DNA of 64,000 nt from an uncultured virus (IMG/VR IMGVR_UViG_3300048065_001102) (IMGVR_UViG_3300048065_001102), one strand, 5' to 3'; numbered from the stretch's first letter, positions 1 to 62,512 are shown. The notes: generated by a model from the letters alone, not told the origin. Translations and numbers: made by a program.

Positions 1-203
1 TCGGTACATACCACAATTTCGTTTTCATCAAGTTCACACACTTTTTCATACAACCAAAGATTTTTTCCATTAAATTTGCCACCTTCGTTAACATCTCTTC
101 CTTCACCAATCGTCTCTACATCTATATGTTGAAGTTTTGCCGAATCCAATAATCTTTGTATTTTATCGGATTTGCTATTGTTGCACCATGTATAAAATTT
201 CAT
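1..203 (-). CDS. PLOD/lysyl-hydroxylase-type glycosyltransferase domain protein (N-terminal part; runs off window edge)
   Basis: Manual translation MKFYTWCNNSKSDKIQRLLDSAK...GEGRDVNEGGKFNGKNLWLYEKVC is clearly paralogous to 9592-10341. ATG overlaps the upstream TAA (TAATG). Confidence 0.7.
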   Translation of the reverse strand, partial: MKFYTWCNNSKSDKIQRLLDSAKLQHIDVETIGEGRDVNEGGKFNGKNLWLYEKVCELDENEIVVCT

Positions 204-1024
204 TATTTGGAACTCCTCCTTTTATCTCTTAAATAACGTTTCATTCTACGAGATTTTCGTCCTGGATTTCCAATGGGACGGGGAAAGTGTGAAATAATAT
301 GTCCAATACTTCCCTTCCAAGGATTTGGATTGTTCACTACCTTTCCTTTTAGTGTTTGGTTATCATGAACCCCACCAAGAATTGCATTATACACCAAAAA
401 TGGTTGCTCCGCACATTTTGGTAATAATTTTTTTTGCAAAAGATGTGTTTTTATATGTAAAAGAGTTTTTTTAAAAAGATTTTTTATCATTTCAGAATTT
501 TTAAAAACCATAACACCTGTACTAAAAGCAGTTGTTGTATATGGTACAGGCCACTTTTTACCTTTCGGTGGAAGTAAAGTTCTTCCGAAGTATTCTTGAG
601 AAATTCGTCCTTCTTGCAAACCATACAATTTGTCCTCTGTGCATTCATCAAAAACTTCATCTAAATTTCCATCTATCAATACATCGGTATCAATGTATAA
701 AATCTCCGAGTAATTTTTGATTTCGTTCCATTCAAATAATCGCATTCTCATTTGAGCCGCATCAAGTACATTTGCTTTCTTAACATCTTCTTCACGAATT
801 CCAAAGTTCTCGTACATCAAAGGTAAACTTAATATTTTTACATCTAAATTATGATTTTTAAAAATTTCTAAAGATTCTTTTACAAAATCAGATTGTGTTA
901 TTAAAAGAATATCCGTAGTATCAAAATTAGTTCCTGATGAAGATAATGAATCTACGAGTAAGTTTATCATACCCAAGTATTCTTTTTTAAGATAATTAGT
1001 AAAATATATCAATCGTTTATTCAT
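203..1024 (-). CDS. GT8-like glycosyltransferase
   Basis: LYIDTDVL DxD motif, FSTGVMVF, AEQPFL and late HF motif of GT-A/GT8 enzymes; basic C-terminal tail. Confidence 0.7.
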   Translation of the reverse strand: MNKRLIYFTNYLKKEYLGMINLLVDSLSSSGTNFDTTDILLITQSDFVKESLEIFKNHNLDVKILSLPLMYENFGIREEDVKKANVLDAAQMRMRLFEWNEIKNYSEILYIDTDVLIDGNLDEVFDECTEDKLYGLQEGRISQEYFGRTLLPPKGKKWPVPYTTTAFSTGVMVFKNSEMIKNLFKKTLLHIKTHLLQKKLLPKCAEQPFLVYNAILGGVHDNQTLKGKVVNNPNPWKGSIGHIISHFPRPIGNPGRKSRRMKRYLRDKRRSSK

Positions 1025-1712
1025 TCTCTTCTGATGAAATTCTTAATTTCTTTGCCATTCTTGATTTAGTAATATCACTGGGAATATCATACTGCGTTGT
1101 AACCGTAGGAATTGTAATATAAGTTTTTGGTAAAAATGTTTGTTGATACCACCAATCTAAATACGAATTGTTATTTTCCACGATTTCTTCCCACAAATCT
1201 CCATTGTATCTTTCAACCATATATTCAAATACATTTGAATTTATAGCATATGATTGAGTCCACCCAACAGATTTACACTTCCATAAATAATCAATTGAAT
1301 CATCGTATTCACCTGACCATTTTTGTGTCATGCGATTATATGTAGGACGATGTCTGATTCTACGTTCACATCCTCCTAGATAATAAAATTCCCAATCTGA
1401 TTTCTCAAGAACCTCAATAGATTTGTTTAATTTCTTTTCACACATATTTTTATAGAAGGCAACATCGTCCTCAAATATTAATACATTATTTAACTTTTTT
1501 TCGTATGCAAGTTTTACAATTCTCATGTGACTTTCATAAAAACCTTTTTTGGGATTTTCAGAATCAGCAACTGCATCAAATCTTTGAACTCTGTCTAGGA
1601 TTCCTATTTTTTCAAATTCTTTTTTTGATAGTTCCCATCTATCAGTTCTGTGTTTCATATTCACACAGTATATTTCATCAAAGTAATCAAAATTTATCAT
1701 CATCTTTTCCAT
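1017..1712 (-). CDS. GT25 glycosyltransferase
   Basis: IYCVNMKHRTDR, RFDAV, SH, LIFEDDV, YLG and SYAIN motifs typical of GT25. Confidence 0.8.
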   Translation of the reverse strand: MEKMMINFDYFDEIYCVNMKHRTDRWELSKKEFEKIGILDRVQRFDAVADSENPKKGFYESHMRIVKLAYEKKLNNVLIFEDDVAFYKNMCEKKLNKSIEVLEKSDWEFYYLGGCERRIRHRPTYNRMTQKWSGEYDDSIDYLWKCKSVGWTQSYAINSNVFEYMVERYNGDLWEEIVENNNSYLDWWYQQTFLPKTYITIPTVTTQYDIPSDITKSRMAKKLRISSEENE

Positions 1713-2644
1713 ATTTTAGAATTTAAAATAGATTTTCCAAAATTTTCAAGTGAAAATCTTGATTTGTCCATTTTCTTTAAATAAATATAAGTTTCTTCAA
1801 GTTTATCGTTGTCGTTTAAGAGATCATATACTTCATTTCTATTTTCAAAATAAAGTGGATAATCTTCTCCTAAATATTCAACGACACCATCTAATTTATT
1901 GACTATTAAAGGTGTATTCATCAAAATAGCATCTAGTATCGTATTGTTCGCAGAAACCTCGCACAACTCCATATACAATATATTCTCTGTTAATGTATTT
2001 AGATATTCGTTAAAAGAAAGAGTTGGTATTTTATTAACGGAATTAAACTCATTGTCAGTTGGATATATTCCATCAGTTTTATTAAATAGTTTTAAATACC
2101 ATTTTTGACGATCATCATAAGGTACTATTGCTTTTGAAAAATCTGTGGGTACATTTAATTTAAAAATAGAATAAGGAATACGCAACCAATGTCCTGTTTG
2201 TATGACTTTTTTGTTTTTATTCTGAATAAACTTTTTCCACGAAAATTTATAATCGTGGTTTTGAATAGGATGGTATAAAAAATCACATTCTATGTGTGAC
2301 AATCCAATTTCGTTCAATGCAATTTTCCACTTATTACACTCAGTTTGTGTCAAAAAGAAAAGACCTTGGCAACGATTTAAAGATTTACGAAATCCCTTTC
2401 CATTCAAGTGATTTCTAAACTTTCCATGATTCATATAATAACGATGTGTATTTAAAGGATCGTGAATGATACCAACCCAATCTTCTTTTATTTCATGTGA
2501 ATTTTTTGCAATTCTAAAGTTGTATTCTGCTTCAACAAATGTAATAAACAAAGGTTCTTTGTCGTATTTTTCAAATACCTTTTCAACCATAGACCACGAT
2601 GGACCACAACGACCTTCCTCTGAATATTTTACATTGGCATTCAA
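1700..2644 (-). CDS. putative GT-B-like glycosyltransferase
   Basis: SANNTILDAILMNTPLIVNKLDGVVEYLGEDYPLYF matches the C-terminal domain of 26420-29026; start codon uncertain (TTG). Confidence 0.5.
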   Translation of the reverse strand: MNANVKYSEEGRCGPSWSMVEKVFEKYDKEPLFITFVEAEYNFRIAKNSHEIKEDWVGIIHDPLNTHRYYMNHGKFRNHLNGKGFRKSLNRCQGLFFLTQTECNKWKIALNEIGLSHIECDFLYHPIQNHDYKFSWKKFIQNKNKKVIQTGHWLRIPYSIFKLNVPTDFSKAIVPYDDRQKWYLKLFNKTDGIYPTDNEFNSVNKIPTLSFNEYLNTLTENILYMELCEVSANNTILDAILMNTPLIVNKLDGVVEYLGEDYPLYFENRNEVYDLLNDNDKLEETYIYLKKMDKSRFSLENFGKSILNSKIWKR

Positions 2645-2702
2645 TATTTGAGTTCCTATTTTAAAAATTATTTGTTATCTTTTTCAAAGTAATCCATCTC
2701 CT

Positions 2703-2885
2703 TTAACACTCTCCGTCACACCAACATTTAAATATCCTAAAATAATAAAGAATATCTTCGTCTGATAAAAGTCTACTCTTTTTTGTCCAATGATAATCAT
2801 GCTTACACCTAAAATGTTGCCTTGTAATATTACAATAAGTTGTTGTACCGGTTTTATTAAACCCTATAAAAAATATTTTACTCAT
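2703..2885 (-). pseudogene. truncated sulfotransferase (N-terminal PAPS-binding loop only)
   Basis: MSKIFFIGFNKTGTTT is a 5'-PSB loop; ORF stops after about 60 codons; ATGA overlap with upstream gene. Confidence 0.55.
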
Positions 2886-3514
2886 CTCCATTCCCCAAAT
2901 TCATAACCGAAATACTCAATATCTTTTCTGTATTTTTCCGCAACGATTTGCTTTGTTTCATCATCGTAGTATTCGGTATAGTGTTTGTGTTTGCCTTTGT
3001 TTTTATGTGGAAGTTTTTGTTTTGGAATTCCAATTTTGTCGCAGATTATATTAAAGTCTTCTTGGAGGTTTTCAAATCTTCCGATGAAATTGACTTCAAC
3101 TCCTAACTTATCGTCTTTTAATAGTGGGTACTGATCACAAATGTGCTGAGTATTTGCATCATTAAAAACTTTTTCGGGATTGGTATCTATTCTTCTAAGT
3201 TGCATACAAAAATCTTTGAACGAAACACCCCAATCACTTATATGTGAACCAAACTTCCATGAAGATACAGCTCTATCAAATGGATTTCTAACAAATCCAA
3301 ATGTAAAATAATTATCCAAGCAGAAAAATTTATCAAAGACCGAAATCACCCGTGAAGCATAATAAGAATTTGGATAAATAATCGTATTGTCAGATGCTTC
3401 TGAAAAAATTTTAGCATTTTTATATCTTTTAAATTCAACTACATTTTTTGTAGATAATATGGAAGTAGAACCTGTTTTTGGTACTCTTATAAATAAACCA
3501 TTTTTAAAATTCAT
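2882..3514 (-). CDS. sulfotransferase (Sulfotransfer_2-like)
   Basis: FIRVPKTGSTS (5'-PSB), FVRNPFDRAVS (3'-PB), IGRFENLQEDF and conserved HYTEYYD..KDIEYFGY tail. Confidence 0.85.
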   Translation of the reverse strand: MNFKNGLFIRVPKTGSTSILSTKNVVEFKRYKNAKIFSEASDNTIIYPNSYYASRVISVFDKFFCLDNYFTFGFVRNPFDRAVSSWKFGSHISDWGVSFKDFCMQLRRIDTNPEKVFNDANTQHICDQYPLLKDDKLGVEVNFIGRFENLQEDFNIICDKIGIPKQKLPHKNKGKHKHYTEYYDDETKQIVAEKYRKDIEYFGYEFGEWR

Positions 3515-3535
3515 TTTATGTTTTCCTCAAACTAT

Positions 3536-3545
3536 TATAAATATC
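3536..3545 (-). promoter_or_regulatory. recurrent intergenic motif GATATTTATA (putative phage late promoter)
   Basis: Same motif found upstream of at least 11 gene starts; followed here by GAGG SD and ATG at 3514. Confidence 0.5.
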
Positions 3546-3561
3546 ACTTAATAATCTTAAC

Positions 3562-4143
3562 TTATTCTCCAAACTTATAATTAAAATACTCAATGTCTTT
3601 TGCGTATTTTTCCGCAACGATTTGTTTTGTTTCATCATCGTAGTATTCGGTGTAGTGTTTATGATTTGATTTGTTTTTATGTGGAAGTTTTTTGCATGGA
3701 AGTTTTAGTTTATTATTCATCGTATCAAAATCTTCTTGCAATGACTCTAATCTCAGAACATAATTTACTGACATATTTATATCATATAAATGAAAATGTA
3801 TTGGTTGAGAATGCCATCGTTGCATTCTTCCCATATTTTTATAACTCAGTTTACAAAATTCATTAAATGTTTCTAATTTTTTAAACGATTTGTGCTTCCA
3901 TATAGAAACCATTCTTTCAAATGGATTTCTTACAGTAGAAAATACTATCGGGTTTTTAAATTTTTTTGCATCAATTACATTTTTGAGTTGGTTAATTGCT
4001 TTTTTATCAAAACTACACTTTGCAGACATATCATTTCCCCAATAACCAAGTTGTTTTCCACCGAATGAATGGATGTTTTCTAAACAACTGAGTGAGGTTG
4101 ATCCTGTTCGTGGCATTCTTAAATATACCAAATCAAAATTCAT
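3562..4143 (-). CDS. sulfotransferase (Sulfotransfer_2-like)
   Basis: YLRMPRTGSTS, VRNPFERMVS, conserved C-terminal tail. Confidence 0.85.
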   Translation of the reverse strand: MNFDLVYLRMPRTGSTSLSCLENIHSFGGKQLGYWGNDMSAKCSFDKKAINQLKNVIDAKKFKNPIVFSTVRNPFERMVSIWKHKSFKKLETFNEFCKLSYKNMGRMQRWHSQPIHFHLYDINMSVNYVLRLESLQEDFDTMNNKLKLPCKKLPHKNKSNHKHYTEYYDDETKQIVAEKYAKDIEYFNYKFGE

Positions 4144-4768
4144 TTCTCATTCCCCCAAATTCATAACCGAAATACTCAATGTCCTTTGCATATTTTTCTG
4201 CAACAATTTCCCGTGTCTCGTCATCGTAATATTCAGTATAGTGTTTGTGTTTCGTTTTATTTGTGTGTGGAAGTTCTTGTTGTGGAATTCCGATTTTGTC
4301 ACAGACGATGTTGAAGTCTTCTTGGAGGTTTTCAAAACGACCTACGAAATCAATAGTATATTTCTTAGAAATGAACCAACTAGAAAAATCACCATCACGA
4401 CCTCTTCGCTTTGCATTGACATCAGCTGCCCTAATGGTGGGAAAACGAAATGCCCGGTGAGTAATCCATTCTCTGAAACTATTTTTGGCAAACTTCTTAT
4501 GTGATTTGCGCCATTTTTCTGACCAATTATTATCTCTAGTCCATAAAAAATTGTACATCGAAACGGTCATATCCCACGGATTTCTCACAAAAGTAAACTT
4601 AAAGTATTTATCGTACCTTGGGTTGTTCATTTCTTCGTATTTACTAAGTGTGTGATGTTTATTTCTTACATCTCTCTTAGACGCATTATTTTTAAATACA
4701 CATTCTATGCTAGTGCCACCCGTTTTGGGAATATGAACAAAAATAAATTTATGTTTATCACTTATCAT
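4133..4768 (-). CDS. sulfotransferase (Sulfotransfer_2-like)
   Basis: FVHIPKTGGTS, FVRNPWDMTVS, conserved tail; near-duplicate of 4758-5390. Confidence 0.9.
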   Translation of the reverse strand: MISDKHKFIFVHIPKTGGTSIECVFKNNASKRDVRNKHHTLSKYEEMNNPRYDKYFKFTFVRNPWDMTVSMYNFLWTRDNNWSEKWRKSHKKFAKNSFREWITHRAFRFPTIRAADVNAKRRGRDGDFSSWFISKKYTIDFVGRFENLQEDFNIVCDKIGIPQQELPHTNKTKHKHYTEYYDDETREIVAEKYAKDIEYFGYEFGGMRNEF

Positions 4769-5305
4769 CTCTCATTCCCCCAAATTCATAACCGAAATAC
4801 TCAATGTCCTTTGCATATTTTTCTGCAACAATTTCCCTTGTCTCGTCATCGTAATATTCAGTATAGTGTTTGTGTTTCGTTTTATTTGTGTGTGGAAGTT
4901 CTTGTTGTGGAATTCCGATTTTGTCACAGACGATGTTGAAGTCTTCTTGGAGGTTTTCAAAACGACCTACGAAATCAATAGTATATTTCTTAGAAATGAA
5001 CCAACTAGAAAAATCACCATCACGACCTCTTCGCCTTGCATTGACATCGGTTGTCCTAATAGTTGGCCAACGAAATGAACGATGAGTAATCCATTCTCTA
5101 AAACTTAGTTTGAAAAGATTCTTATGCCCTCTGCGCCATTGCTCTAACCACCGACCATCTTTGTGCCACATATATTCGTACATCGAAACGGTCATATCCC
5201 ACGGATTTCTCACAAAAGTAAACTTAAAGTATTTATCGTACCTTGGGTTGTTCAGTTCTTCGTATTTACTAAGTGTGTGATGTTTATTTCTTAGATGTCT
5301 CTTAG
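4145..5305. repeat. 625-bp-period tandem gene duplication
   Basis: 4145-4423 vs 4770-5048 and 4553-4680 vs 5178-5305 are nearly identical. Confidence 0.9.
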
Positions 5306-5390
5306 AAGTGTTAAATGCACATTCTATACTGGTACCACCCGTTTTGGGAATATGAACAAAAATAAATTTGTGCTTTCTACTTATCATCAA
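4758..5390 (-). CDS. sulfotransferase (Sulfotransfer_2-like)
   Basis: FVHIPKTGGTS, FVRNPWDMTVS, conserved tail. Confidence 0.9.
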   Translation of the reverse strand: MMISRKHKFIFVHIPKTGGTSIECAFNTSKRHLRNKHHTLSKYEELNNPRYDKYFKFTFVRNPWDMTVSMYEYMWHKDGRWLEQWRRGHKNLFKLSFREWITHRSFRWPTIRTTDVNARRRGRDGDFSSWFISKKYTIDFVGRFENLQEDFNIVCDKIGIPQQELPHTNKTKHKHYTEYYDDETREIVAEKYAKDIEYFGYEFGGMRDDK

Positions 5391-5968
5391 TTTTCTCCAA
5401 ATGTATAATTAAAATAATTTATATCGACTTCATAGTGTTTCTCTACCATTTCACGTGTTTCGTCATCGTAATATTCCCAATAAGGTTTGTGATCTGTTTT
5501 AAATTTATGTGGTAACATACTATCTTTAATTTCAAGTTTATCACATATTTGTGTAAAATCTTCTTGCAAATTCTCGAATTTTCCAATGAAATCCAGTTCA
5601 TTTATTGGGTGAAGGAAATAAAAGTAGTGCATTCGGTGTTGCTTCTGACCTAGATTTCCATTTAAAAATAAAGGAACAAAATGCTTAAATGTAGGTGCGT
5701 GTTTACGATAAAATAATTTTACACCAGGACGTGGATATTTGTAAGTAGAGTTCGTGAACCAAAAATATTCAGATACAAGTTTATCCCAAGGATTTCTTAC
5801 AAACGAAAACTTAAAATAAGATTCACAATCCTTCTCATTCTTATATTGTTGCAGTTGTTGATGTGCATCGTAATTTCCTTCACCCACAAATCCAAGATGC
5901 TTCTCAATGCTCGTTCCTGCACATTTTGGAATGTGTATAAAAATGCATTTATGTTCGTGACTTATCAT
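5387..5968 (-). CDS. sulfotransferase (Sulfotransfer_2-like)
   Basis: FIHIPKCAGTS, FVRNPWDKLVS, FIGKFENLQEDF. Confidence 0.9.
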   Translation of the reverse strand: MISHEHKCIFIHIPKCAGTSIEKHLGFVGEGNYDAHQQLQQYKNEKDCESYFKFSFVRNPWDKLVSEYFWFTNSTYKYPRPGVKLFYRKHAPTFKHFVPLFLNGNLGQKQHRMHYFYFLHPINELDFIGKFENLQEDFTQICDKLEIKDSMLPHKFKTDHKPYWEYYDDETREMVEKHYEVDINYFNYTFGEN

Positions 5969-5971
5969 TTA

Positions 5972-6562
5972 TTATTTTCCAAATTTGTATTCAAATATTT
6001 CAATATCTTTTGCATATTTGTCTGCAATTATTTTTTGAGTTGCTTCATCATAAAACTCTGTATAATGCTTGTACACAGATTTATTTTTGTTAGGAAAGTG
6101 ACCCATTGAAATTCCTATACATTTGCACATTGAATTTAAATCATCAATCAAATTTTCTGTTTTTCCTATGAAGTCAAAATTTTTAATATCAGCAACATAC
6201 GAACATAAACTAAAAGGTAGTTGTGATCGTCTATTATTTTTTTCATTCCACATTTGTTCACCAACAAACAAATTAAAATCATCATTTACATACCATCCAG
6301 GTTTAGACCCATTATCTCTTCGTTTTTTAAGATACGAATGCATGGAAACTACTCTTGCCCAAGGATTGCGTACAAATGTAAACTTAAAGTAATCATCAAT
6401 ATTATCAATCCTTCCTTCAAAGTCTTCGAGACGAGAGTGGGTAAACAAACCAATAGACTTATTAGGTTTTGATTTCATTTTATTTTTCATCCACAATGCC
6501 ATGCTACTACCTGCACATTTTGGAATGTGAATAAAAATACATTTTTGTGTATGACTTATCAT
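5972..6562 (-). CDS. sulfotransferase (Sulfotransfer_2-like)
   Basis: FIHIPKCAGSS, FVRNPWARVVS, FIGKTENL. Confidence 0.9.
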   Translation of the reverse strand: MISHTQKCIFIHIPKCAGSSMALWMKNKMKSKPNKSIGLFTHSRLEDFEGRIDNIDDYFKFTFVRNPWARVVSMHSYLKKRRDNGSKPGWYVNDDFNLFVGEQMWNEKNNRRSQLPFSLCSYVADIKNFDFIGKTENLIDDLNSMCKCIGISMGHFPNKNKSVYKHYTEFYDEATQKIIADKYAKDIEIFEYKFGK

Positions 6563-7263
6563 TTAAAAATTTCTTTAACAATTAATTTGAACGGACGGTC
6601 GTAACGCAACCATTTTACATTTGATTTATTTTCACTTATGTTATCAATGTGATGTATGTTATGCAAAACATGATCGAAATCTTTTAAAGGCTTTCTTCTT
6701 TTTCTTTTACACGAAACATAATAATTCGTCGAACTATTAATAAACTTATTTAAATTAAAATATTTTTTCTTAATTTCATTACTATATTGAATTAAATTCA
6801 TTAATCCAGGACGGTCTGCTTCGTTTAATTCACCAACTAAGTCATATTTGTTTTCATGTAAAATCCAATCAATATCAGTTTGTGGATTTTTAGCAACAAC
6901 ACAATTTACTTTACACAAACTTCCATATAATATAGATGCATATGCACCTGCACTATATCCTGTGAACAATACATTCTTATACTCCATTACTTGGTCAGTC
7001 AAAAACTTAATTGTTTCGTTTATTGTAGTTCCGATTCCATTTAAAGTACCAAGATACCAATACCCTCTATTTCGTAAATACAACACATCAAAGTCATTTC
7101 TTTTAGATTTAAGTTCCATCAATGAAGTTTTCATCTCAAATCCATTGTGATTATTACTCGCAAAACTGACTATTAAATTTTTAGAATTATTCCCAACCTT
7201 TACGTACGCAATATCAGTTGCTTCTGCAATTTCTATTTTTTTAATGCTATCTTTATATCCCAC
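6559..7263 (-). CDS. alpha/beta-hydrolase fold protein (esterase or O-acyltransferase)
   Basis: Nucleophile elbow FTGYSAGAYAS (GxSxG), PQT and late D..H; GTG start with GGGAG SD. Confidence 0.6.
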   Translation of the reverse strand: MGYKDSIKKIEIAEATDIAYVKVGNNSKNLIVSFASNNHNGFEMKTSLMELKSKRNDFDVLYLRNRGYWYLGTLNGIGTTINETIKFLTDQVMEYKNVLFTGYSAGAYASILYGSLCKVNCVVAKNPQTDIDWILHENKYDLVGELNEADRPGLMNLIQYSNEIKKKYFNLNKFINSSTNYYVSCKRKRRKPLKDFDHVLHNIHHIDNISENKSNVKWLRYDRPFKLIVKEIFK

Positions 7264-7275
7264 TACACACTCCCA

Positions 7276-7935: not shown

Positions 7936-7937
7936 TA

Positions 7938-8828: not shown

Positions 8829-8862
8829 TTTTTAGTCCAAATATTTCAAATACCCATAATTT

Positions 8863-10341: not shown

Positions 10342-10342
10342 T

Positions 10343-10879: not shown

Positions 10880-10893
10880 AATAGTTCTTATCT

Positions 10894-11996: not shown

Positions 11997-12045
11997 TTGC
12001 AATTTACCAATTATGATTCCTGTAATATTAATTTAGGTATCATTA

Positions 12046-12600: not shown

Positions 12601-12603
12601 TTA

Positions 12604-13248: not shown

Positions 13249-13258
13249 AAATAAAGAC

Positions 13259-14287: not shown

Positions 14288-14289
14288 AA

Positions 14290-15906: not shown

Positions 15907-15929
15907 TATCTATCTCCATAAATTATTTA

Positions 15930-49423: not shown

Positions 49424-49437
49424 TTTTAATAATCCAA

Positions 49438-51501: not shown

Positions 51502-51511
51502 TACTTTTACC

Positions 51512-54450: not shown

Positions 54451-54467
54451 AAAACAATAATATAATG

Positions 54468-54475
54468 ATAAATAT
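54468..54475 (-). promoter_or_regulatory. ATATTTAT motif (putative late promoter)
   Basis: Just downstream of the terminator, upstream of ATG 54450. Confidence 0.45.
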
Positions 54476-54505
54476 ATACAATTTTAAATATCTTGTTAGA
54501 TAAAC

Positions 54506-54536
54506 AAAAAAAGGAGGGTTTTACCCTCCTTTTTTT
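54506..54536 (-). terminator. intrinsic (probably bidirectional) terminator
   Basis: A7-GGAGGGT-TTT-ACCCTCC-T7 perfect inverted repeat about 20 nt after the stop of 54558-55511. Confidence 0.85.
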
Positions 54537-54557
54537 CAAAACTATTATTTTTACTTA

Positions 54558-55511
54558 TTAAATGTTTTCTTCAGTCGTAACCACTGCTTCGGCATTTTCA
54601 ACTACAATTAATGTTGAATCTTCTGAGTCAGATTCAGTTTTCAAACCACCACTTATTATAGCACCTTCAATTTCACCTGATTTATTAACAAAATGAGAAC
54701 TTGATGGTGGGGATGTAAAAGTTACTGGTGTTTGACCAGAACCATTTGCTATCCACTTCGTTCCTTCTAATATATTATACGGAGAATTTGTTAGCACCCA
54801 TCTTGCTTTTGTAGTTGATCCATCCGGTACTGCTGGATGCCAGAAAATATACCATTCACCATCTTTGTGACGATACGCAGATCTTTCATTAATTGTTCCA
54901 ACCACACAATAAGGACCATTTGCCGATTCTATGTCAGCTCCTTCAAATCCTGCAACTACGATACAATTCTCATCTACAACCACATTTTCAGGATTACTTA
55001 AATAAGGACCGTGATTAACAAGTGGACTATTATTTAAATAATGAGTTCCGTTTCTATTCATTTTGGGTGTGGAGATAACCCATGATAAAATAGAAGAATC
55101 AAACCATAAAAACCAATCTCCATTCTTATAGGTAGGTTTATTATTTTTAAATATACTTGTTAATTTATATACACCCGCACCTTCACCACCTGATAATGTA
55201 ACACTCATAGGATAGTTCATTGCTATCCTACCAAAATCTGTTAAGTAGTCAGTTTCAACTGCATAACTAATATCGTAAGTTTCACCTTCAGTTAAAGTAG
55301 AATAAACTATCGCACCCGCACCACAATCTATATTTTGAAAAGAAAAACCAAGTTCCGCTCTTTCCGGGTCTGTGTTTAATACTCGTTCACCAGTATGTTC
55401 AATTTTAAAAGTAATCAACATTTTGTCTTTATGATCCATTACTTTTATATGCTCACATAGGGAGGAAGTAGAACCCACCCATACATATGAATTATTATAT
55501 TCTATTGTCAT
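54558..55511 (-). CDS. modular protein (divergent WYG/LECG module plus two G.Y..N.KP.Y..W repeats)
   Basis: VWVGS..C...FQNIDCGAGAIVY; N-terminal region homologous to 56076-59258. Confidence 0.55.
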   Translation of the reverse strand: MTIEYNNSYVWVGSTSSLCEHIKVMDHKDKMLITFKIEHTGERVLNTDPERAELGFSFQNIDCGAGAIVYSTLTEGETYDISYAVETDYLTDFGRIAMNYPMSVTLSGGEGAGVYKLTSIFKNNKPTYKNGDWFLWFDSSILSWVISTPKMNRNGTHYLNNSPLVNHGPYLSNPENVVVDENCIVVAGFEGADIESANGPYCVVGTINERSAYRHKDGEWYIFWHPAVPDGSTTKARWVLTNSPYNILEGTKWIANGSGQTPVTFTSPPSSSHFVNKSGEIEGAIISGGLKTESDSEDSTLIVVENAEAVVTTEENI

Positions 55512-55525
55512 ATCACCGATTCCAG

Positions 55526-55930
55526 TTATACCGGTACTACTCTTCCCATATCAACTCCTTGTGCAGTTGGTACAAAATTTGGAATTTCAAATTCCATTAT
55601 TCCTGGATTTTTGATTAAATACATTCTACCACATTCCAATTTATCAAATTTAATAAAGAATCTTGTTTGAGAACCAGGACCTGACCATGTATTTGATTCA
55701 GCAGGAAGCGACCAAACACTGGAACCACCTTTACTAAAAGATGAAATACGAATTAGACTTGCACTTGTAAAGTCTTGAGTTCCCTCTGCATAAGGACCTA
55801 CATATTGTGGTCCACTTGCACCTTCTGGCCATGTATATGTACCAATTTTCGTTTGTAAGTCAAACGCAGTGCAATCTTCCCCAGATACTCCGTACCAACC
55901 AAGTGTGTAATAAGTTGTTATTAATGCCAT
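55526..55930 (-). CDS. stand-alone WYG/LECG module protein
   Basis: GWYGVSGEDC..FDL...KLECGRMYLIK...EIPNFV...GRV; AGGAG SD. Confidence 0.65.
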   Translation of the reverse strand: MALITTYYTLGWYGVSGEDCTAFDLQTKIGTYTWPEGASGPQYVGPYAEGTQDFTSASLIRISSFSKGGSSVWSLPAESNTWSGPGSQTRFFIKFDKLECGRMYLIKNPGIMEFEIPNFVPTAQGVDMGRVVPV

Positions 55931-55962
55931 TTTTTTTCTCCTATAATAGTTTTGTTATAGTA

Positions 55963-56047
55963 ATAAATATATTATTATAATTTTTTTTTGATTGAATTAT
56001 TGTGTTAATGGCCGTGTTTCATTGATACCATTCACTTAGATAAATAT
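55963..56047 (-). promoter_or_regulatory. two ATATTTAT motifs (55963-55970, 56040-56047)
   Basis: Both lie in the largest intergenic gap of the window, upstream of 55526-55930. Confidence 0.45.
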
Positions 56048-56075
56048 ATAACAAAAATTTTAAATTGTTTATTTA

Positions 56076-59000
56076 TTATCTGCATACATTATCATTCAAA
56101 ATAAAATATCTAAATGATCGTTTAAACTCATTTATACGAGTAGATTCGTTTACATCATAATTATATATTCTAATATCATCTACAAGTATCTGAGCACTTA
56201 CAGGAAATATTTGCACCATATTTAATATATTTTCTAAAAAACTTCCATTTACATTTTTTTTACTTGAAATTAAATAGTTGTTTTTAAATACTTCAATTTT
56301 ACTTGTTTCCAACCCATCATCTATTGTTTTGCTTTTTATGACTGCTAAACAAACCCAATCATTTTTAGATGAAGTTTCCTGTGCAAATAAATAACCACTT
56401 CCGTACTTTACATCTCCGTTTGAATAAATAACAAATTCATTATTTTCATTGTTAGAAATCTCAGAATTATCCGAAATTCTAAAAATTGGTATTTTATTCA
56501 TTTCAATGTTTTTAAACCAAATAAAAATACTAAAATTATCCAAAAATATTTTTTTATCAAGTGGTGTTTGCAAATCCAAATCTGAAATTTTCGAGATGTC
56601 ATATATTGGATCATCGTTGAAAGCACCCGTTATATCTGTTGTGATGGTGTCATATCCAATCGTTGCACCAAGGTGATTGTATTTTCCACTTTTATCGAAA
56701 ATAATATGTGACTTCTCACTTAACTTACCATACTCTTTTCCAAAATCCCACCAAGCCTCCATTTCAGTTTCTATATCATCAAATGAATCATGCACTCTTT
56801 GTAAATCAGTTTTTGAATCAAAGTGAAATAATGAAACATCTGTTAAATTATTTTGGTCTGTTTTATATGAACCGTGGTGTACCACACAGTAATCGTCTGT
56901 AACCAAACACGTAGGAGTCGGACTGTTTGTCGGTAAAACTAAATGAGTAACAAACTCAAATGAATCTTCTCCCATATACTCAAACAAATAAACAAAATTC
57001 GCATTATCAGATGATACTGCCAAATATTTTCCTCCAAATGAAATTTTCTTTCCGAAACTAACTATATTAGAATATTTTAAACCAGACTTTCTATAAGGTG
57101 GTGTAATGCTTGGTATAATTTCATTTTCATTATTTTTAATTTTTCTTATGCTATATCCCTCTGTTGTTTTATCAATTCTATAAACTTCAATTATCGATGG
57201 ACTTGCTTTACTTAGATAATTATCGTTTGGATCAAATTTAAATTTTTCAGAATATGAATTACTAAAAGATGCTAATAAAAAATGGTCTTCATTAAATTCA
57301 ACCTGTGTAAATCCGAATGTTGTCGAATCAAATGAACCATAATAGGTATCAGCATCTTCTAATTTAATTGTTTCTCCTATTCTATATAATAAAATATCAT
57401 AACTATCAAACGCAGATGGATCACTTTCAAGCAATAACAATAGGTCATCTTTTAAAGAAAAGTTTTTTATATTTTCAAATACCTTAAATATACTCCATAA
57501 TCCAGCAAAATTCTTTCTGTATAACAAAAGATCATTCTTAGATAATATAAATAAAATATCATACGAACTAACTAAAGAATTTATCTGTCGTGAATCTTTA
57601 GTAGAAAATTGGAATTTGCTTTTTCCATATTCATACCCACTTGATATATTTTGAGATTTCCATTCCGAATTATCTTTTTCAAAAATATAGAAATCATTCG
57701 TGCTTAACCAAATTAGTAAAATATTTTGATTGTTTGGTGAATCAATGTAATCAAAATCAACGATGAAATCTTTAAATGATGGAAAATTTCCAATTGTTTC
57801 CTCTGATGAAATTGCAAGACCACTTTGCACTAATATATAATAAACTAACTTTAAATTACCAGTTTCATCTACATCCAAACTTAAAATTCTATCATCACTC
57901 AATTTTTTTATAGCATTTGATTTTAATATATTATTAAACACTCTAACATCTTCACTAATTGGTAAATTAGTCTCTACATCTTCAGCCAGAGGAATTGAAA
58001 ATGGTTCTAAGTCTGATATAGAGTCAGTTCCGTCGTATATTTGAGAAATTTCGTAAGGTGATAATGGTTTTTCATAAATTCTTATGTCATCCATTAACCC
58101 CCAATATGAAGAATCTCCTTCCGAATTTGTAAGTTGAATATTTCCAATCACCAAATCATCGTTTGATGAAAAATAATTATTTTGTAAATTTGAAGTTTTG
58201 ACCAACTCTGCGTTATGGTAAATTTTTAATAAACCATCTTCAACCACATAAACTAAATGATTCCAATTACCTGTATTAACATTTAATTTTGATTGGGGTA
58301 TGAAAACACGTTCTTTTGAGTTCGATAGTGAACCATCTGCCCAAACTATAAAAGAATCATTATCAAGTACCTGATATGATGATGATTTAGATAAAATTGC
58401 TCCCATTTTACAATTATTCATATCATCACATTCTCCGTTACCCGTTGTACGAAAACAACATTCAGAATTTTCTAATGAATAAATTGACTTAGGGTTAGTC
58501 CACACCGAAATAGTAAAATTGTTAGAACTAAATGTGCTATTTAATATATTTCCAAGATTTTTTTGTCTTTTTGAATATTGAAAGTTAAATACTTTACCGT
58601 ATTTGTTTTCACTTTCATCTAAGTTTAATATAAATGTAGAATTTACTTTAAAATTAAACTTACTATACAATTCCTCAACCACACCATCACTTCGTAAATA
58701 ATCCGCATCCCATCTTGCAATAATTTTTTGCTCGTTGCATAATGCGTAACTTTGAAAAATATCTTCTGAACAATTACAGAAGATTACTTTATTAACTGGA
58801 TGCGTTATATACCACTTTCTTAAAGATTTATTAAAATGTATTTTCCAATTATCTTTATTTTTATATACAGGTTTATCATCTTTAAATTCAGATGTCAGCT
58901 CATATATACCACCCGCAGATGATACAATTGTATTTATACTTCTTGGTTCTATTTGCGTTGGATAATTTAATAAAAATCTTAAATTAGAATCTACTGAATA

Positions 59001-59258
59001 ATCTGTATTTATTAAATTTTCTAATTTAGAAAACTCGTTTATATTTTTTAAATATATTACCGCACCTGACCCACACCCTATATTAGTAAAATTTAAATTC
59101 AATTCAGCACTCTCTGGATCACTTCTAACCATTAAGGATCCTGATTGTTCTACTAAAAAACAAAACTCAATTAAGTCTTTGTGATCAGCTAATACTACAG
59201 GATCACAATTTTCTGTGCTTGATACTAAACCTAAATTTACATCATATAGATTTTCCAT
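56076..59258 (-). CDS. large modular protein with two LamG-like domains and a propeller-like middle
   Basis: FTISVW..WNHLVYV..YWGLMDDIRIYEKPLS; FSIFIWFK..VDDIRIYN; FGKKISFGGKYLAVSS. Confidence 0.65.
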   Translation of the reverse strand: MENLYDVNLGLVSSTENCDPVVLADHKDLIEFCFLVEQSGSLMVRSDPESAELNLNFTNIGCGSGAVIYLKNINEFSKLENLINTDYSVDSNLRFLLNYPTQIEPRSINTIVSSAGGIYELTSEFKDDKPVYKNKDNWKIHFNKSLRKWYITHPVNKVIFCNCSEDIFQSYALCNEQKIIARWDADYLRSDGVVEELYSKFNFKVNSTFILNLDESENKYGKVFNFQYSKRQKNLGNILNSTFSSNNFTISVWTNPKSIYSLENSECCFRTTGNGECDDMNNCKMGAILSKSSSYQVLDNDSFIVWADGSLSNSKERVFIPQSKLNVNTGNWNHLVYVVEDGLLKIYHNAELVKTSNLQNNYFSSNDDLVIGNIQLTNSEGDSSYWGLMDDIRIYEKPLSPYEISQIYDGTDSISDLEPFSIPLAEDVETNLPISEDVRVFNNILKSNAIKKLSDDRILSLDVDETGNLKLVYYILVQSGLAISSEETIGNFPSFKDFIVDFDYIDSPNNQNILLIWLSTNDFYIFEKDNSEWKSQNISSGYEYGKSKFQFSTKDSRQINSLVSSYDILFILSKNDLLLYRKNFAGLWSIFKVFENIKNFSLKDDLLLLLESDPSAFDSYDILLYRIGETIKLEDADTYYGSFDSTTFGFTQVEFNEDHFLLASFSNSYSEKFKFDPNDNYLSKASPSIIEVYRIDKTTEGYSIRKIKNNENEIIPSITPPYRKSGLKYSNIVSFGKKISFGGKYLAVSSDNANFVYLFEYMGEDSFEFVTHLVLPTNSPTPTCLVTDDYCVVHHGSYKTDQNNLTDVSLFHFDSKTDLQRVHDSFDDIETEMEAWWDFGKEYGKLSEKSHIIFDKSGKYNHLGATIGYDTITTDITGAFNDDPIYDISKISDLDLQTPLDKKIFLDNFSIFIWFKNIEMNKIPIFRISDNSEISNNENNEFVIYSNGDVKYGSGYLFAQETSSKNDWVCLAVIKSKTIDDGLETSKIEVFKNNYLISSKKNVNGSFLENILNMVQIFPVSAQILVDDIRIYNYDVNESTRINEFKRSFRYFILNDNVCR

Positions 59259-59262
59259 ATGA

Positions 59263-59271
59263 TATAAATAT
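59263..59271 (-). promoter_or_regulatory. ATATTTATA motif (putative late promoter)
   Basis: 4 nt upstream of ATG 59258, no SD. Confidence 0.5.
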
Positions 59272-59284
59272 GGTGCTTTCTAAA

Positions 59285-60616
59285 TTAAACTTTTTTAAGT
59301 ATAATCAAAAATGATGTCTCACCGATAAAATTAAAGTCATCAACCCAACTACCAAATTTGTCATGATCGGTAGTTACATTAAGTTCACCTGTGTAACAAT
59401 CACCATCTATATGCAAGAATATGGTATTATCGTTATTGCCACCAGCATTCTTAACACCCTTTACAACTTGAAATCTACATAGTTTTGTCATTTCAGCTGC
59501 TGATGTCGGTAATGTATCTCCTTCAAAGTAACAATAACTTTCTTTACTACCGATACCAGTCCAATCTAGTTTTTCGGAAGGTTCAAACGGATGTAAGTTT
59601 CTTTGATAAATAAGTTCACCTCTCATTTCACCAAAAAGATCAGCAGGTGAAAACGACAAATATCCGTAATTATTTGGAGGTACTGGTATATTAAAATTAG
59701 GTAACACATCTAAAATATTATCAGTATACACATGAGTAGGTAATCCTTTCCACGAAAGAACTCCTGCGTCGGTTGTTGTGTGACTACCAGCAATATCAGA
59801 TTCTCCGACAGACACCTTCCCAACTTCTTCTAAATCAAAAGCACTAAATGTATTGTCAGCTGGTTTACCACATTCAAGTGCAATCAAACTTGGTGAAGGT
59901 GTTGGTGACGGTGTTGAAATTGTACCTATCAATTCTAAATTTACAACATAATCACCTTGCTGTGTTCCTGATTCTATTTTTACAACCTTTCCTGAATAAC
60001 AATTTCCGTCTGCACGTTCATAGTATACCGTAGGTTCACCTGACGAAGGTATTGCCGACAAATTCATATTAATCGTGGGAACTCCCGTTTGGTTTGGAAG
60101 GTAAACATTCATACCAATAGTTGTAGTCGGTACATCATAATCCGATGGTAAATACGCAAAATTTCCTATAATTGTAGGATTAAAATTAATTGTAAAAAAG
60201 TTTGGTACTACAACTTGATTCTCCGTGTGGTTAATTGTCGTATATGATTGTGGTATACATCCTTGCATAACAGTTGGACTTGGAGTTGGACTTGGAGTTG
60301 GACTAGGTGTGCTTATATCAACCTCTGCTACAAAAAGTCCTCTTGGATTATCTCCATTGGGACTTGAATTTGCGTGTGGTATATCAATAGAAGCACCATC
60401 CTCTAACTCAATAATATATCCATACCCACATTCAAGTGTATTAAATACATTAGATGGAGCACCTTTTCTATATGTTGGGTACAAATTACCATCAACTCTA
60501 TATACTCTTTTTATTTCGGCATGGTCTTCTAATTTTATAGATTCACACTTGTTGGTTTGGTGAAGTTCGAAATCTCCATACCATATTAAATTTAATTTAT
60601 CACTCAATACACTCAT
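59285..60616 (-). CDS. modular protein (WYG/LECG module, PS/PT linkers, two ..CY.G modules)
   Basis: LIWYGD...TLECGYGYIIEL..IDIP; DGNCYSG and DGDCYTG. Confidence 0.6.
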   Translation of the reverse strand: MSVLSDKLNLIWYGDFELHQTNKCESIKLEDHAEIKRVYRVDGNLYPTYRKGAPSNVFNTLECGYGYIIELEDGASIDIPHANSSPNGDNPRGLFVAEVDISTPSPTPSPTPSPTVMQGCIPQSYTTINHTENQVVVPNFFTINFNPTIIGNFAYLPSDYDVPTTTIGMNVYLPNQTGVPTINMNLSAIPSSGEPTVYYERADGNCYSGKVVKIESGTQQGDYVVNLELIGTISTPSPTPSPSLIALECGKPADNTFSAFDLEEVGKVSVGESDIAGSHTTTDAGVLSWKGLPTHVYTDNILDVLPNFNIPVPPNNYGYLSFSPADLFGEMRGELIYQRNLHPFEPSEKLDWTGIGSKESYCYFEGDTLPTSAAEMTKLCRFQVVKGVKNAGGNNDNTIFLHIDGDCYTGELNVTTDHDKFGSWVDDFNFIGETSFLIILKKV

Positions 60617-60620
60617 TTTT

Positions 60621-61334
60621 TTACTCCTTCAATATACACACATTGTTTGAAATTTCTCCGGATAAACATTTATCTACAAATTGTCCTGTTGTAACATTAA
60701 GATATATCATTGACCCAGAATCTATATTACCTGTAAAAGTAATATGTCCTATTAGTTGATTATTATGCAACAAATCGACTGCAATTGGTGTACTTGAACT
60801 TGTTGCAGATGGTGTTGGCACTGATAATTTACCAACATATGCAATTCCGGATGAAATTACACCATTTTCTTGATCAGAAACATTTGATTGTGGTGATACA
60901 TCATATATAAGATTTCCAAGTTGTGTACAATATAACTGATCTGCACACGTACTTGAGATATATCCGTCTTGACCAGAAATATGAAAATCTTTTATATCAA
61001 AGTCTTGAACAGCACCACGACTAACAACTATATAACCACGACCACAATCGAGTTCTTGAAAGTTATTATTAAAAAAATGATCAAATGATTTACCTGAAGA
61101 AATTATTTTATTAAAAAGACCTTCTTTATTTTTATTATATGGTGTAAATTTTTCAAAAACATTACCAACATGACCTTGAACATTTGAAACTCTTACAATT
61201 GCACTTAATTTACTACGATCATCTCCTGAATCAGATGTTGATAGAGTTCCGTCTAATAAAAGTCCTGAACAATTTTTCATTGTTTCACAACTTCCGTACC
61301 ATCCAAATTGAACTTTTTTGCTAATTATTCCCAT
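60621..61334 (-). CDS. modular protein (WYG/LECG module plus C-terminal module)
   Basis: FGWYGSC..C...ELDCGRGYIVV; C-domain resembles that of 40833-42041. Confidence 0.6.
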   Translation of the reverse strand: MGIISKKVQFGWYGSCETMKNCSGLLLDGTLSTSDSGDDRSKLSAIVRVSNVQGHVGNVFEKFTPYNKNKEGLFNKIISSGKSFDHFFNNNFQELDCGRGYIVVSRGAVQDFDIKDFHISGQDGYISSTCADQLYCTQLGNLIYDVSPQSNVSDQENGVISSGIAYVGKLSVPTPSATSSSTPIAVDLLHNNQLIGHITFTGNIDSGSMIYLNVTTGQFVDKCLSGEISNNVCILKE

Positions 61335-61337
61335 TGG

Positions 61338-61346
61338 TATAAATAT
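61338..61346 (-). promoter_or_regulatory. ATATTTATA motif (putative late promoter)
   Basis: 3 nt upstream of ATG 61334, no SD. Confidence 0.5.
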
Positions 61347-62512
61347 TATGCATCAGTTAAAATTACCGAGTAATCCCCCCCTTCATCTCGCACTACATTA
61401 CCTTTGTAGCAATTTCCGTCACATGACTCATTATCACCAGTATTACATTTGTAGTATATTACAGGTTGTTCTCCATCTTTTGGTAACATACTCAAATTAA
61501 TAACTGCTATTAATTTTCCATTTTTCTTTACAAATGTAGAGATAGGTTCAGCCGAAGGAATGGGAAAGTCTTCTGCTAAATTAAACGCAAATGTAGAATC
61601 CCCATCAATTGAAAATATAGTACCTAGATCAGTTACAGTACCATCTGCGTTTGCCTCTTCAACCGTAGCATCCTCAATTGTATGTCCGTCTGGTTTACAA
61701 ATATCAACAACCGGAGATGGTGTTGGAACTATTGGGGTAGGTGTAGGCACAATAGGAGTAGGTGTAGGTATGATTGGAGTAGGTGTAGGTATGATTGGAG
61801 TAGGTGTCGGTGTTGGGTCTTCTCCAAAACAAGGTTTAAACCAAATTCCACCCACCTCTTGTCCGTTTATTGTCTGAGAACGAATCTCGAACTCAAATCT
61901 TTCAGCTGTATATACTTTACCATCACAATCAACATATTCAAAGTTTCTAAAATATGGAGATATATTACCATTCATCCACTCAGTATATCTTGGATGTGTA
62001 GTTAAATTGGTTAGTTCTGCTTCTATAAAATCATCAAAGCATTGCTCTGTTGTTACACTCGTATCAATTTCTTCAGGACTTTTTCTCGGTGGACGTACTA
62101 ACCATGTGTTGTTATTATCTCGCACCTCCCATGAAATTGCAGGACACACAGGTGTTGGTGTAGGAGTAGGTGTAGCACCAATACAATCATCAGTAACTCC
62201 AAAATTATTAAGTGATTGAAGTGATGAAGCAAGTGAATTAGGTAAAACAATACCACCACTATTTACAGCATCGTCAGTTAGAGTAACTAAATACATTCTT
62301 CCACATTCAAATTTTGTAATTTGTGTTTTGTTTTCAGATGGATTGTAATTTAAAAAGTCACCAGTAATCTGATTTCCTTCTGAAAAAGTGCTAATTGAAT
62401 GTATAGATGACAACACAGATGAACCTAATTCATCAAAACTTATTTCTGTACAAGTAGACTCTTGACACGTTCCATACCAGACATATTGAAATTTTTTGTT
62501 GATAATACCCAT
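61346..62512 (-). CDS. modular PT-rich protein (WYG/LECG module)
   Basis: VWYGTCQESTC...KFECGRMYLVTL; (IIPTPTP)n repeat at 61720-61817; DGNCYKG. Confidence 0.6.
   Translation of the reverse strand: MGIINKKFQYVWYGTCQESTCTEISFDELGSSVLSSIHSISTFSEGNQITGDFLNYNPSENKTQITKFECGRMYLVTLTDDAVNSGGIVLPNSLASSLQSLNNFGVTDDCIGATPTPTPTPVCPAISWEVRDNNNTWLVRPPRKSPEEIDTSVTTEQCFDDFIEAELTNLTTHPRYTEWMNGNISPYFRNFEYVDCDGKVYTAERFEFEIRSQTINGQEVGGIWFKPCFGEDPTPTPTPIIPTPTPIIPTPTPIVPTPTPIVPTPSPVVDICKPDGHTIEDATVEEANADGTVTDLGTIFSIDGDSTFAFNLAEDFPIPSAEPISTFVKKNGKLIAVINLSMLPKDGEQPVIYYKCNTGDNESCDGNCYKGNVVRDEGGDYSVILTDA

What the first reader, a model, noticed from the sequence alone, without database searches (positions are those of the whole stretch)
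1..62512. Candidate virus-encoded sulfated glycocalyx system: 30 kb of glycosylation/sulfation genes joined to 32 kb of Pro-Thr-rich fibre genes
Seen: one co-directional run places about 17 sulfotransferase-like and about 13 glycosyltransferase-like genes directly next to 17 probable structural genes, about ten of which carry (PT)n tracts, and both halves share an upstream motif. I see no Wzx/Wzy/ABC exporter, no initiating phosphoglycosyl transferase, no membrane anchors on the GTs and no signal peptides on the PT proteins. Established: Pro/Thr-rich linkers are O-glycosylation targets (cellulase and scaffoldin linkers, mucins); Sulfotransfer_2 enzymes sulfate carbohydrates using PAPS; chloroviruses and mimiviruses glycosylate their own virion proteins. 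Inference: a large phage builds heavily sulfated O-glycans on its own surface fibres in the host cytoplasm, giving a mucin- or proteoglycan-like coat for adhesion, shielding or mimicry of sulfated polysaccharides. I know of no described phage system with sulfation on this scale.
Basis: partly seen in the sequence, partly recalled or inferred. Interest (0 to 1): 0.92.

Follow-up and report, generated by a model that had tools for sequence, protein, structure and literature searches.

The report
Marine giant phage sulfated-glycan island
A very large uncultured marine virus of bacteria carries about 14 sulfate-adding and about 10 sugar-adding enzyme genes right beside 17 genes for modular, proline/threonine-rich surface proteins, and probably coats its own particle with strain-specific sulfated sugars, although no sugar has been measured.

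Summary
ATATTTAT precedes 11 starts across both halves. The DNA is most likely a marine phage of about 570 kb; this is inferred, since no terminase or capsid gene was reachable. Thirteen close relatives keep a conserved core (GT77-like enzyme, one sulfotransferase, GDP-mannose 3,5-epimerase) inside a shuffled GT/sulfotransferase set, and one keeps the junction to the PT block. The PT proteins are built from two unnamed domains (WYG, CC; 11 copies each) plus dockerin-like loops. In four T4-like phage fragments the same domains follow the baseplate genes, supporting a virion role. Against a single system: six other phage records with a relative of the island ATPase (0-11 sulfotransferases) have no PT-rich proteins, and no initiating enzyme was identified. 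Best reading (0.5): sulfated O-glycans on the phage's own appendages. It is a new variant of known virus self-glycosylation; this scan noted smaller versions on other phage DNA.

The parts
203..30577 (-). Glycan/sulfation island, g1-g37
   Evidence: Pfam, NCBIfam, PHROG scans
203..2644 (-). g1 GT8, g2 GT25, g3 weak GT4-like
2645..2881 (-). Truncated sulfotransferase-like remnant (short frame with K-T-G-T-T loop)
   Evidence: read by eye; not scanned
2882..6562 (-). Six tandem Sulfotransfer_2 genes g4-g9 (g6/g7 a recent pair)
6559..12002 (-). g10 XcbB/CpsF-like (weak), g11 GT34, g12 unassigned, g13 GT2, g14 PLOD-type GT, g15 DUF1796 papain-like (core), g16 GT77-like, g17 unassigned
12046..13612 (-). 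g18, g19 Sulfotransfer_2; g20 shortened methyltransferase-like gene (relatives about 190 aa)
13613..14287 (-). g21, the conserved core sulfotransferase (83-92% in 13 of 13 close loci)
14290..15906 (-). g22 GHKL (MutL/MORC/Hsp90-type) ATPase, marker of this island type in several phage lineages; role unknown
15930..16658 (-). g23 possible P-loop sulfotransferase, no family hit
16655..17620 (-). g24 Nucleotid_trans (GT77-like) core glycosyltransferase (84-96% in 13 of 13 close loci)
17633..19534 (-). g25 nucleotidyltransferase + EcbF/BcbF HAD phosphatase + APH-type kinase fusion
19558..20583 (-). g26 GDP-mannose 3,5-epimerase (93-97% in 11 of 13 close loci)
   Evidence: PDB 2c59 E 4e-96
20621..22525 (-). 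g27-g29 Sulfotransfer_2
22522..26418 (-). g30 DUF1796 (weak hit; core), g31 RgpF-like, g32 Sulfotransfer_2, g33 unassigned, g34 divergent Sulfotransfer_2
26420..30577 (-). g35 GT6 + DUF5672 multidomain, g36 sulfotransferase-like (weak), g37 NodZ/FUT8-like (weak)
30578..30603 (-). Junction of the two blocks, holding an ATATTTAT motif 1 nt before the g37 start
30604..62512 (-). Block of 17 acidic modular ORFs g38-g54, probable virion appendage proteins
30604..32529 (-). g38: three dockerin-like EF-hand repeats + F5/8-type domain (PHROG tail protein E 1e-12)
35859..37169 (-). g41: two dockerin-like repeats, PT, beta-sandwich related to the g47 middle domain, C-terminal CC domain
37191..42041 (-). 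g42 (WYG, two PT tracts), g43 (WYG, 80-aa PT, CC), g44 (WYG, PT, CC)
42110..49444 (-). g45, 2444 aa: two dockerin-like repeats, three LamG, glycine-rich region, PT, CC, DUF285/PARCEL repeats
49438..54450 (-). g46 (WYG, PT, CC, 130-aa PT), g47 (WYG, two CC), g48 (PT, CBM5/12-like weak, CC)
54558..62512 (-). g49, g51 (divergent WYG; g51 LamG), g50 (WYG alone), g52, g53, g54 (WYG + CC; g52 and g54 with PT)
62556..63740 (-). Flank outside the finding: g55 (homologues in terminase-bearing phages), g56, g57 phage HNH protein

Best explanation
This is a late module of a marine giant phage (about 570 kb, inferred) that builds a sulfated glycan coat on its own particle, with the Pro/Thr tracts of its modular appendage proteins among the acceptors. 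Shown: gene content, intact PAPS-binding motifs, a GME, a conserved core with a variable periphery, shared upstream motif, fibre-locus position of WYG/CC/PT homologues. Inferred: (1) both blocks are transcribed from the ATATTTAT element late in infection; (2) g26 makes GDP-L-galactose/L-gulose and g25 activates a further unit; (3) soluble enzymes work stepwise in the cytoplasm without a lipid carrier or export, the conserved g24 and g21 making an invariant inner glycan and the swappable GTs and sulfotransferases adding strain-specific caps; (4) PAPS comes from the host or from an APS kinase elsewhere in the genome; (5) the coat gives a polyanionic, variable surface for adhesion, shielding or decoy mimicry. 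The peptide-initiating enzyme is unidentified.
For: No membrane or export proteins in the island. All 13 aligned sulfotransferases keep both PAPS-binding motifs. Core g24/g21/g15 in 13 of 13 close loci, g24 and g26 more conserved than the ATPase beside them. L029 has a g38/g41-like PT protein directly upstream of g37-g36. WYG proteins share contig lengths with island genes (44,907; 142,434; 569,543). Motif before 11 starts in both halves and before island genes in 10 close loci. In 4 of 4 T4-like fragments the order is baseplate wedge genes, a 1481-1610 aa PT+CC protein, then WYG genes. Five of 5 near-complete sulfotransferase-bearing phage records carry an APS-kinase match (model positions 5-93 of 152). 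Megavirinae fibril-glycan clusters likewise join GTs, a sulfotransferase and two papain-like genes (PMC10117803 passages); mycobacteriophages glycosylate capsid and tail tube (cited in PMC12363180).
Against: Six island-ATPase phage records fetched whole (three rated 100% complete; 11, 7, 2, 1, 5 and 0 sulfotransferases) have no WYG, CC or Pro/Thr/Ser-rich tract; the WYG profile found 0 of 19 such records. LR756508.1 has a GT29/GT25/sulfotransferase island with no PT-rich protein in the 100 kb read. The four T4-like WYG/PT fragments hold no sulfotransferase (9-29% complete), and in the complete G024 the 3 copies lie 85 kb or more from the WYG genes. In G011 the island sits between replication genes. 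GC3 differs between the halves (0.238 vs 0.175). No known polypeptide-initiating GT family was hit. Published work reads cyanophage GT clusters as host-surface modifiers (PMC7824862 section 3.4.10).
Confidence: 0.5

Rival explanations
1. Host-surface remodelling: the island rebuilds the infected cell's LPS or exopolysaccharide with sulfated L-sugars to block rival phages or grazers, using host carriers and exporters; the PT block is merely a neighbour in a variable region.
For: This is the published reading of cyanophage GT clusters (PMC7824862; PMC12801897 passages). GT8, GT25, RgpF, EcbF and XcbB-like hits are LPS/capsule families in bacteria. Islands exist without PT proteins.
Against: Those papers offer inference in the passages I saw. 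The motif is shared with the structural block. A core 84-97% conserved across the clade fits a phage-encoded acceptor better than varied host polymers (inference). No membrane anchors.
Confidence: 0.2
2. Virion glycosylation, but on other proteins (capsid, tail tube or sheath, as in mycobacteriophages); the PT tracts are bare rigid spacers.
For: Explains why PT-less tailed phages carry the same island type; in G016 and G018 the ATPase and a sugar enzyme follow structural genes directly.
Against: 237 clustered Thr/Ser in PT tracts next to the island; junction kept in L029; Pro/Thr linkers are known O-glycan sites (recalled).
Confidence: 0.18
3. Not a phage: a cellular chromosome island or a eukaryotic giant virus.
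For: No terminase, capsid or portal gene in the window and no genome held. One g22 relative lies among cellular genes in a cyanobacterial MAG contig (L022). DUF285, LamG and dockerin-like parts occur in cellular surface proteins.
Against: g22 relatives in only 2 contigs of 185,579 species genomes, at 38% and 46%, against 21 IMG/VR loci. g57 best GenBank phage match is a 484-kb phage, 47%. No signal peptides, prokaryotic start signals. WYG loci found were phage records with baseplate or terminase genes or syntenic to them.
Confidence: 0.07
4. DNA hypermodification: the enzymes glycosylate and sulfate phage DNA bases, with the GHKL ATPase as a DNA-acting partner.
For: g22 has weak MutL/PMS2 likeness; phage GTs on DNA are known (cited in PMC12619734).
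Against: No base hydroxymethylase or TET/JBP hit among 58 proteins; the families resemble surface-glycan enzymes; the variable periphery is hard to reconcile with DNA replication (inference).
Confidence: 0.05

Closest known systems
Megavirinae fibril glycosylation clusters (Moumouvirus australiensis, Cotonvirus japonicus; PMC10117803, passages seen)
   Same: Virus-encoded cluster of nucleotide-sugar enzymes and GTs with a sulfotransferase and two papain-like genes; proposed to glycosylate the particle's own fibrils in the cytoplasm; 6-33 genes.
   Different: Eukaryotic giant viruses; one sulfotransferase and an in-cluster APS kinase versus 14 and none; amino-sugar pathways versus GME; sulfation there is also unvalidated.
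Mycobacteriophage virion glycosylation (Che8, Corndog, Myrna; Freeman 2023, seen only as cited in PMC12363180 and PMC12619734)
   Same: Phage GTs O-glycosylate the phage's own particle.
   Different: Few GTs, acceptors are capsid and tail tube, no sulfation reported in the passages seen, no modular PT appendages.
Cyanophage LPS-type clusters (P-SSM2, S-SCSM2R with 13 GTs; PMC7824862, PMC12801897)
   Same: Large variable GT clusters with epimerases in marine jumbo phages; g26 has 42-44% matches in such phages.
   Different: Read as host-surface modifiers; the word sulfotransferase is absent from both main texts; no adjacent PT block described.
Uncultured phage LR756508.1 (484,177 bp, unannotated record)
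   Same: About 22-kb island of soluble GTs with paralog expansion (5 GT29, 2 GT25, GT10, 2 Sulfotransfer_2, GMD, NeuB) some 35 kb from the g57 orthologue.
   Different: Sialic-acid-centred, no WYG/CC, no PT-rich protein or ATATTTAT enrichment in the 100 kb read.
Cellulosome (dockerin/cohesin modules with Pro/Thr linkers)
   Same: PT linkers between modules; repeats in g38, g41, g45 match dockerin calcium loop-helix (best E 2e-5).
   Different: Match covers about 24 positions per repeat with extra helices between; a cohesin partner is not shown; no hydrolases; no secretion signal.

Membership tests
Tailed phage (Caudoviricetes) | Terminase, portal and HK97 capsid genes in the same genome | not testable with these tools
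   No genome held; none in the window; metagenome records not searchable.
Tailed phage (Caudoviricetes) | Gene families found in phages and rare in cells; prokaryotic translation signals | tested here: met
Megaphage (>540 kb as defined in PMC9723777) | Genome length | tested here: inconclusive
   Cluster members of g22 and g47 (90% identity) each list a 569,543-bp contig; sameness of the contig is inferred from length.
Sulfotransfer_2 (PF03567) | Score over cut-off and both PAPS-binding motifs | tested here: met
   14 over cut-off; motifs kept in the 13 aligned.
Sulfotransfer_2 (PF03567) | Sulfate transfer to a carbohydrate | not testable with these tools
   Needs an assay.
GDP-mannose 3,5-epimerase | Full-length match with the catalytic Cys, Tyr/Lys and Lys motifs | tested here: met
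   2c59 E 4e-96 over residues 6-330; SSAC, YGxEK and REK motifs aligned (residue roles recalled).
Wzx/Wzy or ABC-type cellular polysaccharide locus | Flippase/polymerase/ABC exporter and initiating phosphoglycosyl transferase in the locus | tested here: not met
   None among hits, no polytopic protein in 57 ORFs; holds for the window only.
Megavirinae-type fibril glycosylation cluster | GTs, nucleotide-sugar enzymes, sulfotransferase and papain-like genes clustered | tested here: met
   (works-like, not membership).
Megavirinae-type fibril glycosylation cluster | APS kinase inside the cluster | tested here: not met
   None in the window; present elsewhere in 5 of 5 other records.
Phage virion glycosylation system | Glycan detected on particle proteins | not testable with these tools
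   No isolate or proteome.
Cohesin-dockerin system | Duplicated calcium loop-helix dockerin | tested here: inconclusive
   Top PDB hits are dockerins but Pfam Dockerin_1 is sub-threshold (18.3 vs 22.9 bits, L029).
Cohesin-dockerin system | Cohesin partner | tested here: inconclusive
   g41 model unusable (pLDDT 33); Atlas gives only beta-sandwich leads at TM about 0.6 on a low-confidence model.
Phage DNA hypermodification | Base-priming enzyme beside the transferases | tested here: not met
   No such hit in the window; rest of genome unseen.

The most novel reading that the evidence does not exclude
The phage assembles a branched bottle-brush appendage by domain docking: each C-terminal CC domain binds the N-terminal WYG domain of the next protein (11 CC and 11 WYG here; CC-only roots g41, g45, g48; two-CC branch point g47; WYG-only tips g42, g49, g50, g51), anchored through dockerin-like repeats, and its PT spacers carry sulfated L-galactose-type glycans whose sulfation pattern is reshuffled between strains. 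That would be a phage-made proteoglycan-like coat mimicking algal sulfated galactans, with a new cohesin/dockerin-like module pair. The docking is inferred only from domain counts and gene order.
Probability: 0.17. Interest if true: 0.92.

Novelty: new variant of a known kind. Interest (0 to 1): 0.72.

Why it matters
If true, abundant marine giant phages make their own sulfated glycoproteins, a chemistry usually assigned to algae and animals, and vary it like an O-antigen. It would also reopen the standing assumption that phage GT clusters modify the host: here candidate acceptors, a conserved core enzyme pair and small soluble enzymes make the virion-versus-host question directly testable in vitro. 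The 14 soluble CHST-like enzymes and the WYG/CC modules are also candidate tools for glycan sulfation and protein assembly. Only 3 of 50,697 GenBank phage records matched one of these sulfotransferases, with at most 2 places.

Tried and rejected
Genome and rest of contig: not held; 16 metagenome records could not be searched by handle; g50, the g52 family and g24 found nothing in IMG/VR; g54, g22, g47 and g55 found nothing in GenBank phages. WYG fold: good model (pLDDT 84) but no clear match (best Z 4.2, rmsd 2.9, 68 aligned; none at E 0.001 in BFVD or PDB); this shows neither a new fold nor a function. Atlas rows for WYG and the g41 middle domain were under its naming bar. g41 single-sequence model failed. 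The g47-family and CC profiles found no solved relative; CC and WYG are not detectably related. No complex prediction was obtained, so WYG oligomers and CC-WYG binding remain untested. The idea of one recent sulfotransferase expansion is rejected: the largest window-only clade has 3 of 13 members and 7 of 13 have their nearest neighbour in another phage (79 sequences; L033 and L022 left out). Homogenised 3' ends are only a hint: tails 75-87% identical in DNA among six copies versus 33-45% in the middle (g6/g7 pair apart), synonymous identity 0.68 vs 0.57, pairs not independent. RNA run X22 gave identical pieces in both halves but is contigs only, share 0.08, DNA carry-over not excluded; joints between sulfotransferase tails there may be repeat artefacts. 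Literature searches listed no paper on a phage sulfotransferase array or phage dockerins; most hits were seen as listings only; the library lacks most subscription papers, Freeman 2023 was not held, and I read no supplements, where annotation tables of huge phages could list such genes.


Full report
Observation. The window is one minus-strand run of 57 ORFs at about 31% GC with no tRNA. Pfam gives 14 Sulfotransfer_2 genes over cut-off and 9 firm glycosyltransferase ORFs among g1-g37, plus a nucleotidyltransferase/phosphatase/kinase fusion, two DUF1796 genes and a GHKL ATPase. g26 is a GDP-mannose 3,5-epimerase. Ten of the 17 ORFs g38-g54 have (T/S-P)n tracts holding 237 Thr/Ser. ATATTTAT lies within 60 nt of 11 starts, 4 in the glycan half and 7 in the PT half. 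Hydropathy shows no real membrane segment or signal (a crude scan). Two other seawater runs bridge the junction without differences; all 24 listed runs are marine or seawater.

What it is. No genome is held, so phage status is indirect. Proteins within 90% identity of g22 and of g47 each list a 569,543-bp contig, and relatives list 495,094, 528,892 and 566,177 bp. g22 relatives occur in 21 IMG/VR loci but only 2 contigs of the species-genome set. g57 matches phage HNH families and best a 484-kb phage record; its close relatives share contig lengths 142,434, 171,500 and 528,892 with g22 relatives. g55 has homologues in terminase-bearing records G011 and G024. I put a phage at about 0.93. The host is unknown.

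The island has a core and a periphery. In 13 close metagenome loci (chosen through g22, at most 10 kb each side; L026 and L033 look like one strain) g24, g21 and g15 are always present, g26 in 11, g25 in 9, g30 in 8; g24 is 84-96% and g26 93-97% identical even where g22 is near 50%. Around this core the genes differ: GT64, GT32, GT92, GT10, SGNH, a 2OG oxygenase and others (35 cluster representatives from 10 of the loci). These loci hold 1-7 sulfotransferases each; the same span here holds 10, so this strain is at the high end. The copies are an old shuffled pool rather than one expansion. All 13 aligned keep both PAPS motifs and differ in the middle, which fits different acceptor positions (inference).

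The PT block is modular. An N-terminal WYG...CG..Y domain occurs in 11 ORFs and a cysteine-bracketed CC domain 11 times in 10 ORFs. The WYG profile finds 394 representatives at 50% identity; in 139 of 149 examined it starts within 25 residues of the N-terminus, fused to LamG, Ig-like, FN3, DUF285 or Reeler domains in some of the 37 scanned. Only 55 of the 150 listed have a PT tract of 3 or more units and 3 of the 95 longer than 300 aa have 6 or more, so very long tracts are a feature of this strain or are under-represented in that library. g38, g41 and g45 carry seven repeats whose best PDB matches are dockerin calcium loops. A DNA pattern scan of IMG/VR gave 17 loci, 5 with true WYG genes. 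G025 is a T4-like myovirus fragment with terminase, sheath, tube and baseplate genes, and in it and three syntenic fragments a 1481-1610 aa PT+CC protein and then WYG genes follow the baseplate wedge, with ATAAATA in two of the four upstream regions. This is the best evidence for a virion role; 'fibre' itself is unproven.

Are the two blocks one system? Against: 18 of 19 IMG/VR records with a g22 relative have sulfotransferases (1-11 copies) yet 0 of 19 have WYG, and the 6 fetched whole have no Pro/Thr/Ser-rich tract. LR756508.1 has a sialyl/sulfo island with no PT-rich neighbour. The T4-like WYG fragments have no sulfotransferase, and G024 has 3 far away. So the coupling is real within this clade but the island type does not need PT proteins.

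Mechanism. With no carrier, exporter or anchor, the simplest acceptor is a cytoplasmic protein, and the particle is the product that leaves the cell. Megavirinae clusters proposed for fibril glycans show the same mix of GTs, sulfotransferase and two papain-like genes (PMC10117803, passages). Mycobacteriophages glycosylate their particles (seen only as cited in PMC12363180 and PMC12619734, passages). Several families here (PLOD, GT25, GT77, and GT90 in G011) include protein-directed enzymes in eukaryotes (recalled), but they do not name an initiator. PAPS supply is outside the window; 5 of 5 near-complete records tested have an APS-kinase match. The main published alternative is host-surface change (PMC7824862, section 3.4.10 read; PMC12801897, passages). 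I give 0.5 to glycans on the PT appendages, 0.18 to other virion proteins, 0.2 to host surface, 0.07 to non-phage and 0.05 to DNA.

Other papers seen: PMC12619734 part 1 of 8 and passages; PMC9723777 part 1 of 2, used for the megaphage definition; PMC12660748 passages, not used as support. Earlier notes of this scan describe smaller GT/sulfotransferase islands beside Pro/Thr-rich phage fibres on other DNA; I did not check them and do not count them as support.

Verdict. Real, well organised and unusual in scale; a new variant of virus self-glycosylation rather than a new category, with the acceptor unproven. Interest 0.72.

Noticed in passing
L180:10432-31845 (LR756508.1): A 484-kb phage record carries five GT29 sialyltransferase genes with NeuB, a cytidylyltransferase, GT10, GT25, GMD and sulfotransferases: a possible phage sialylation island.
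   Followed up: partly
L022:10001-11677: A g22 ATPase relative (38%) sits in a cyanobacterial MAG contig among genes that I recognise from memory as carboxysome and CO2-uptake genes; transfer or mis-assembly not resolved.
   Followed up: no
L023: A 210,818-bp contig filed in a Cellvibrionales MAG carries the G011-type island; probably a binned phage, possibly a host hint for that other lineage.
   Followed up: no
L109-L110 (G011 111-131 kb): Island of a roughly 200-kb myovirus with GT90, GT17, GT31, GT7-like, NodZ, pyruvyltransferase and methyltransferases around the same ATPase, and a second sulfotransferase cluster at 179-186 kb.
   Followed up: partly
L020:9168-13501 (G018): ATPase relative lies between a GT-like gene and a gene that I recognise from memory as a T4-type portal, right after baseplate genes.
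   Followed up: partly
window 63264-63740: g57 HNH is conserved at 71-94% across about 59 clusters, unusual for a mobile homing endonuclease; perhaps a core function and a good clade marker.
   Followed up: partly
window 13259-13612 and 2645-2881: Shortened methyltransferase-like gene and a truncated sulfotransferase-like remnant: signs of gene turnover in the island.
   Followed up: no
window 54451-54557: GC-rich inverted repeat followed by a T run between g49 and g48, a likely terminator just upstream of an ATATTTAT motif (seen; not folded).
   Followed up: no
window 49034-49396: 192-bp tandem duplication at 98% identity makes the two dockerin-like repeats of g45.
   Followed up: partly
G024 117852-142409: Two giant (2982 and 4048 aa) Pro/Thr/Ser-rich proteins in a 206-kb phage with few sugar genes.
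   Followed up: no
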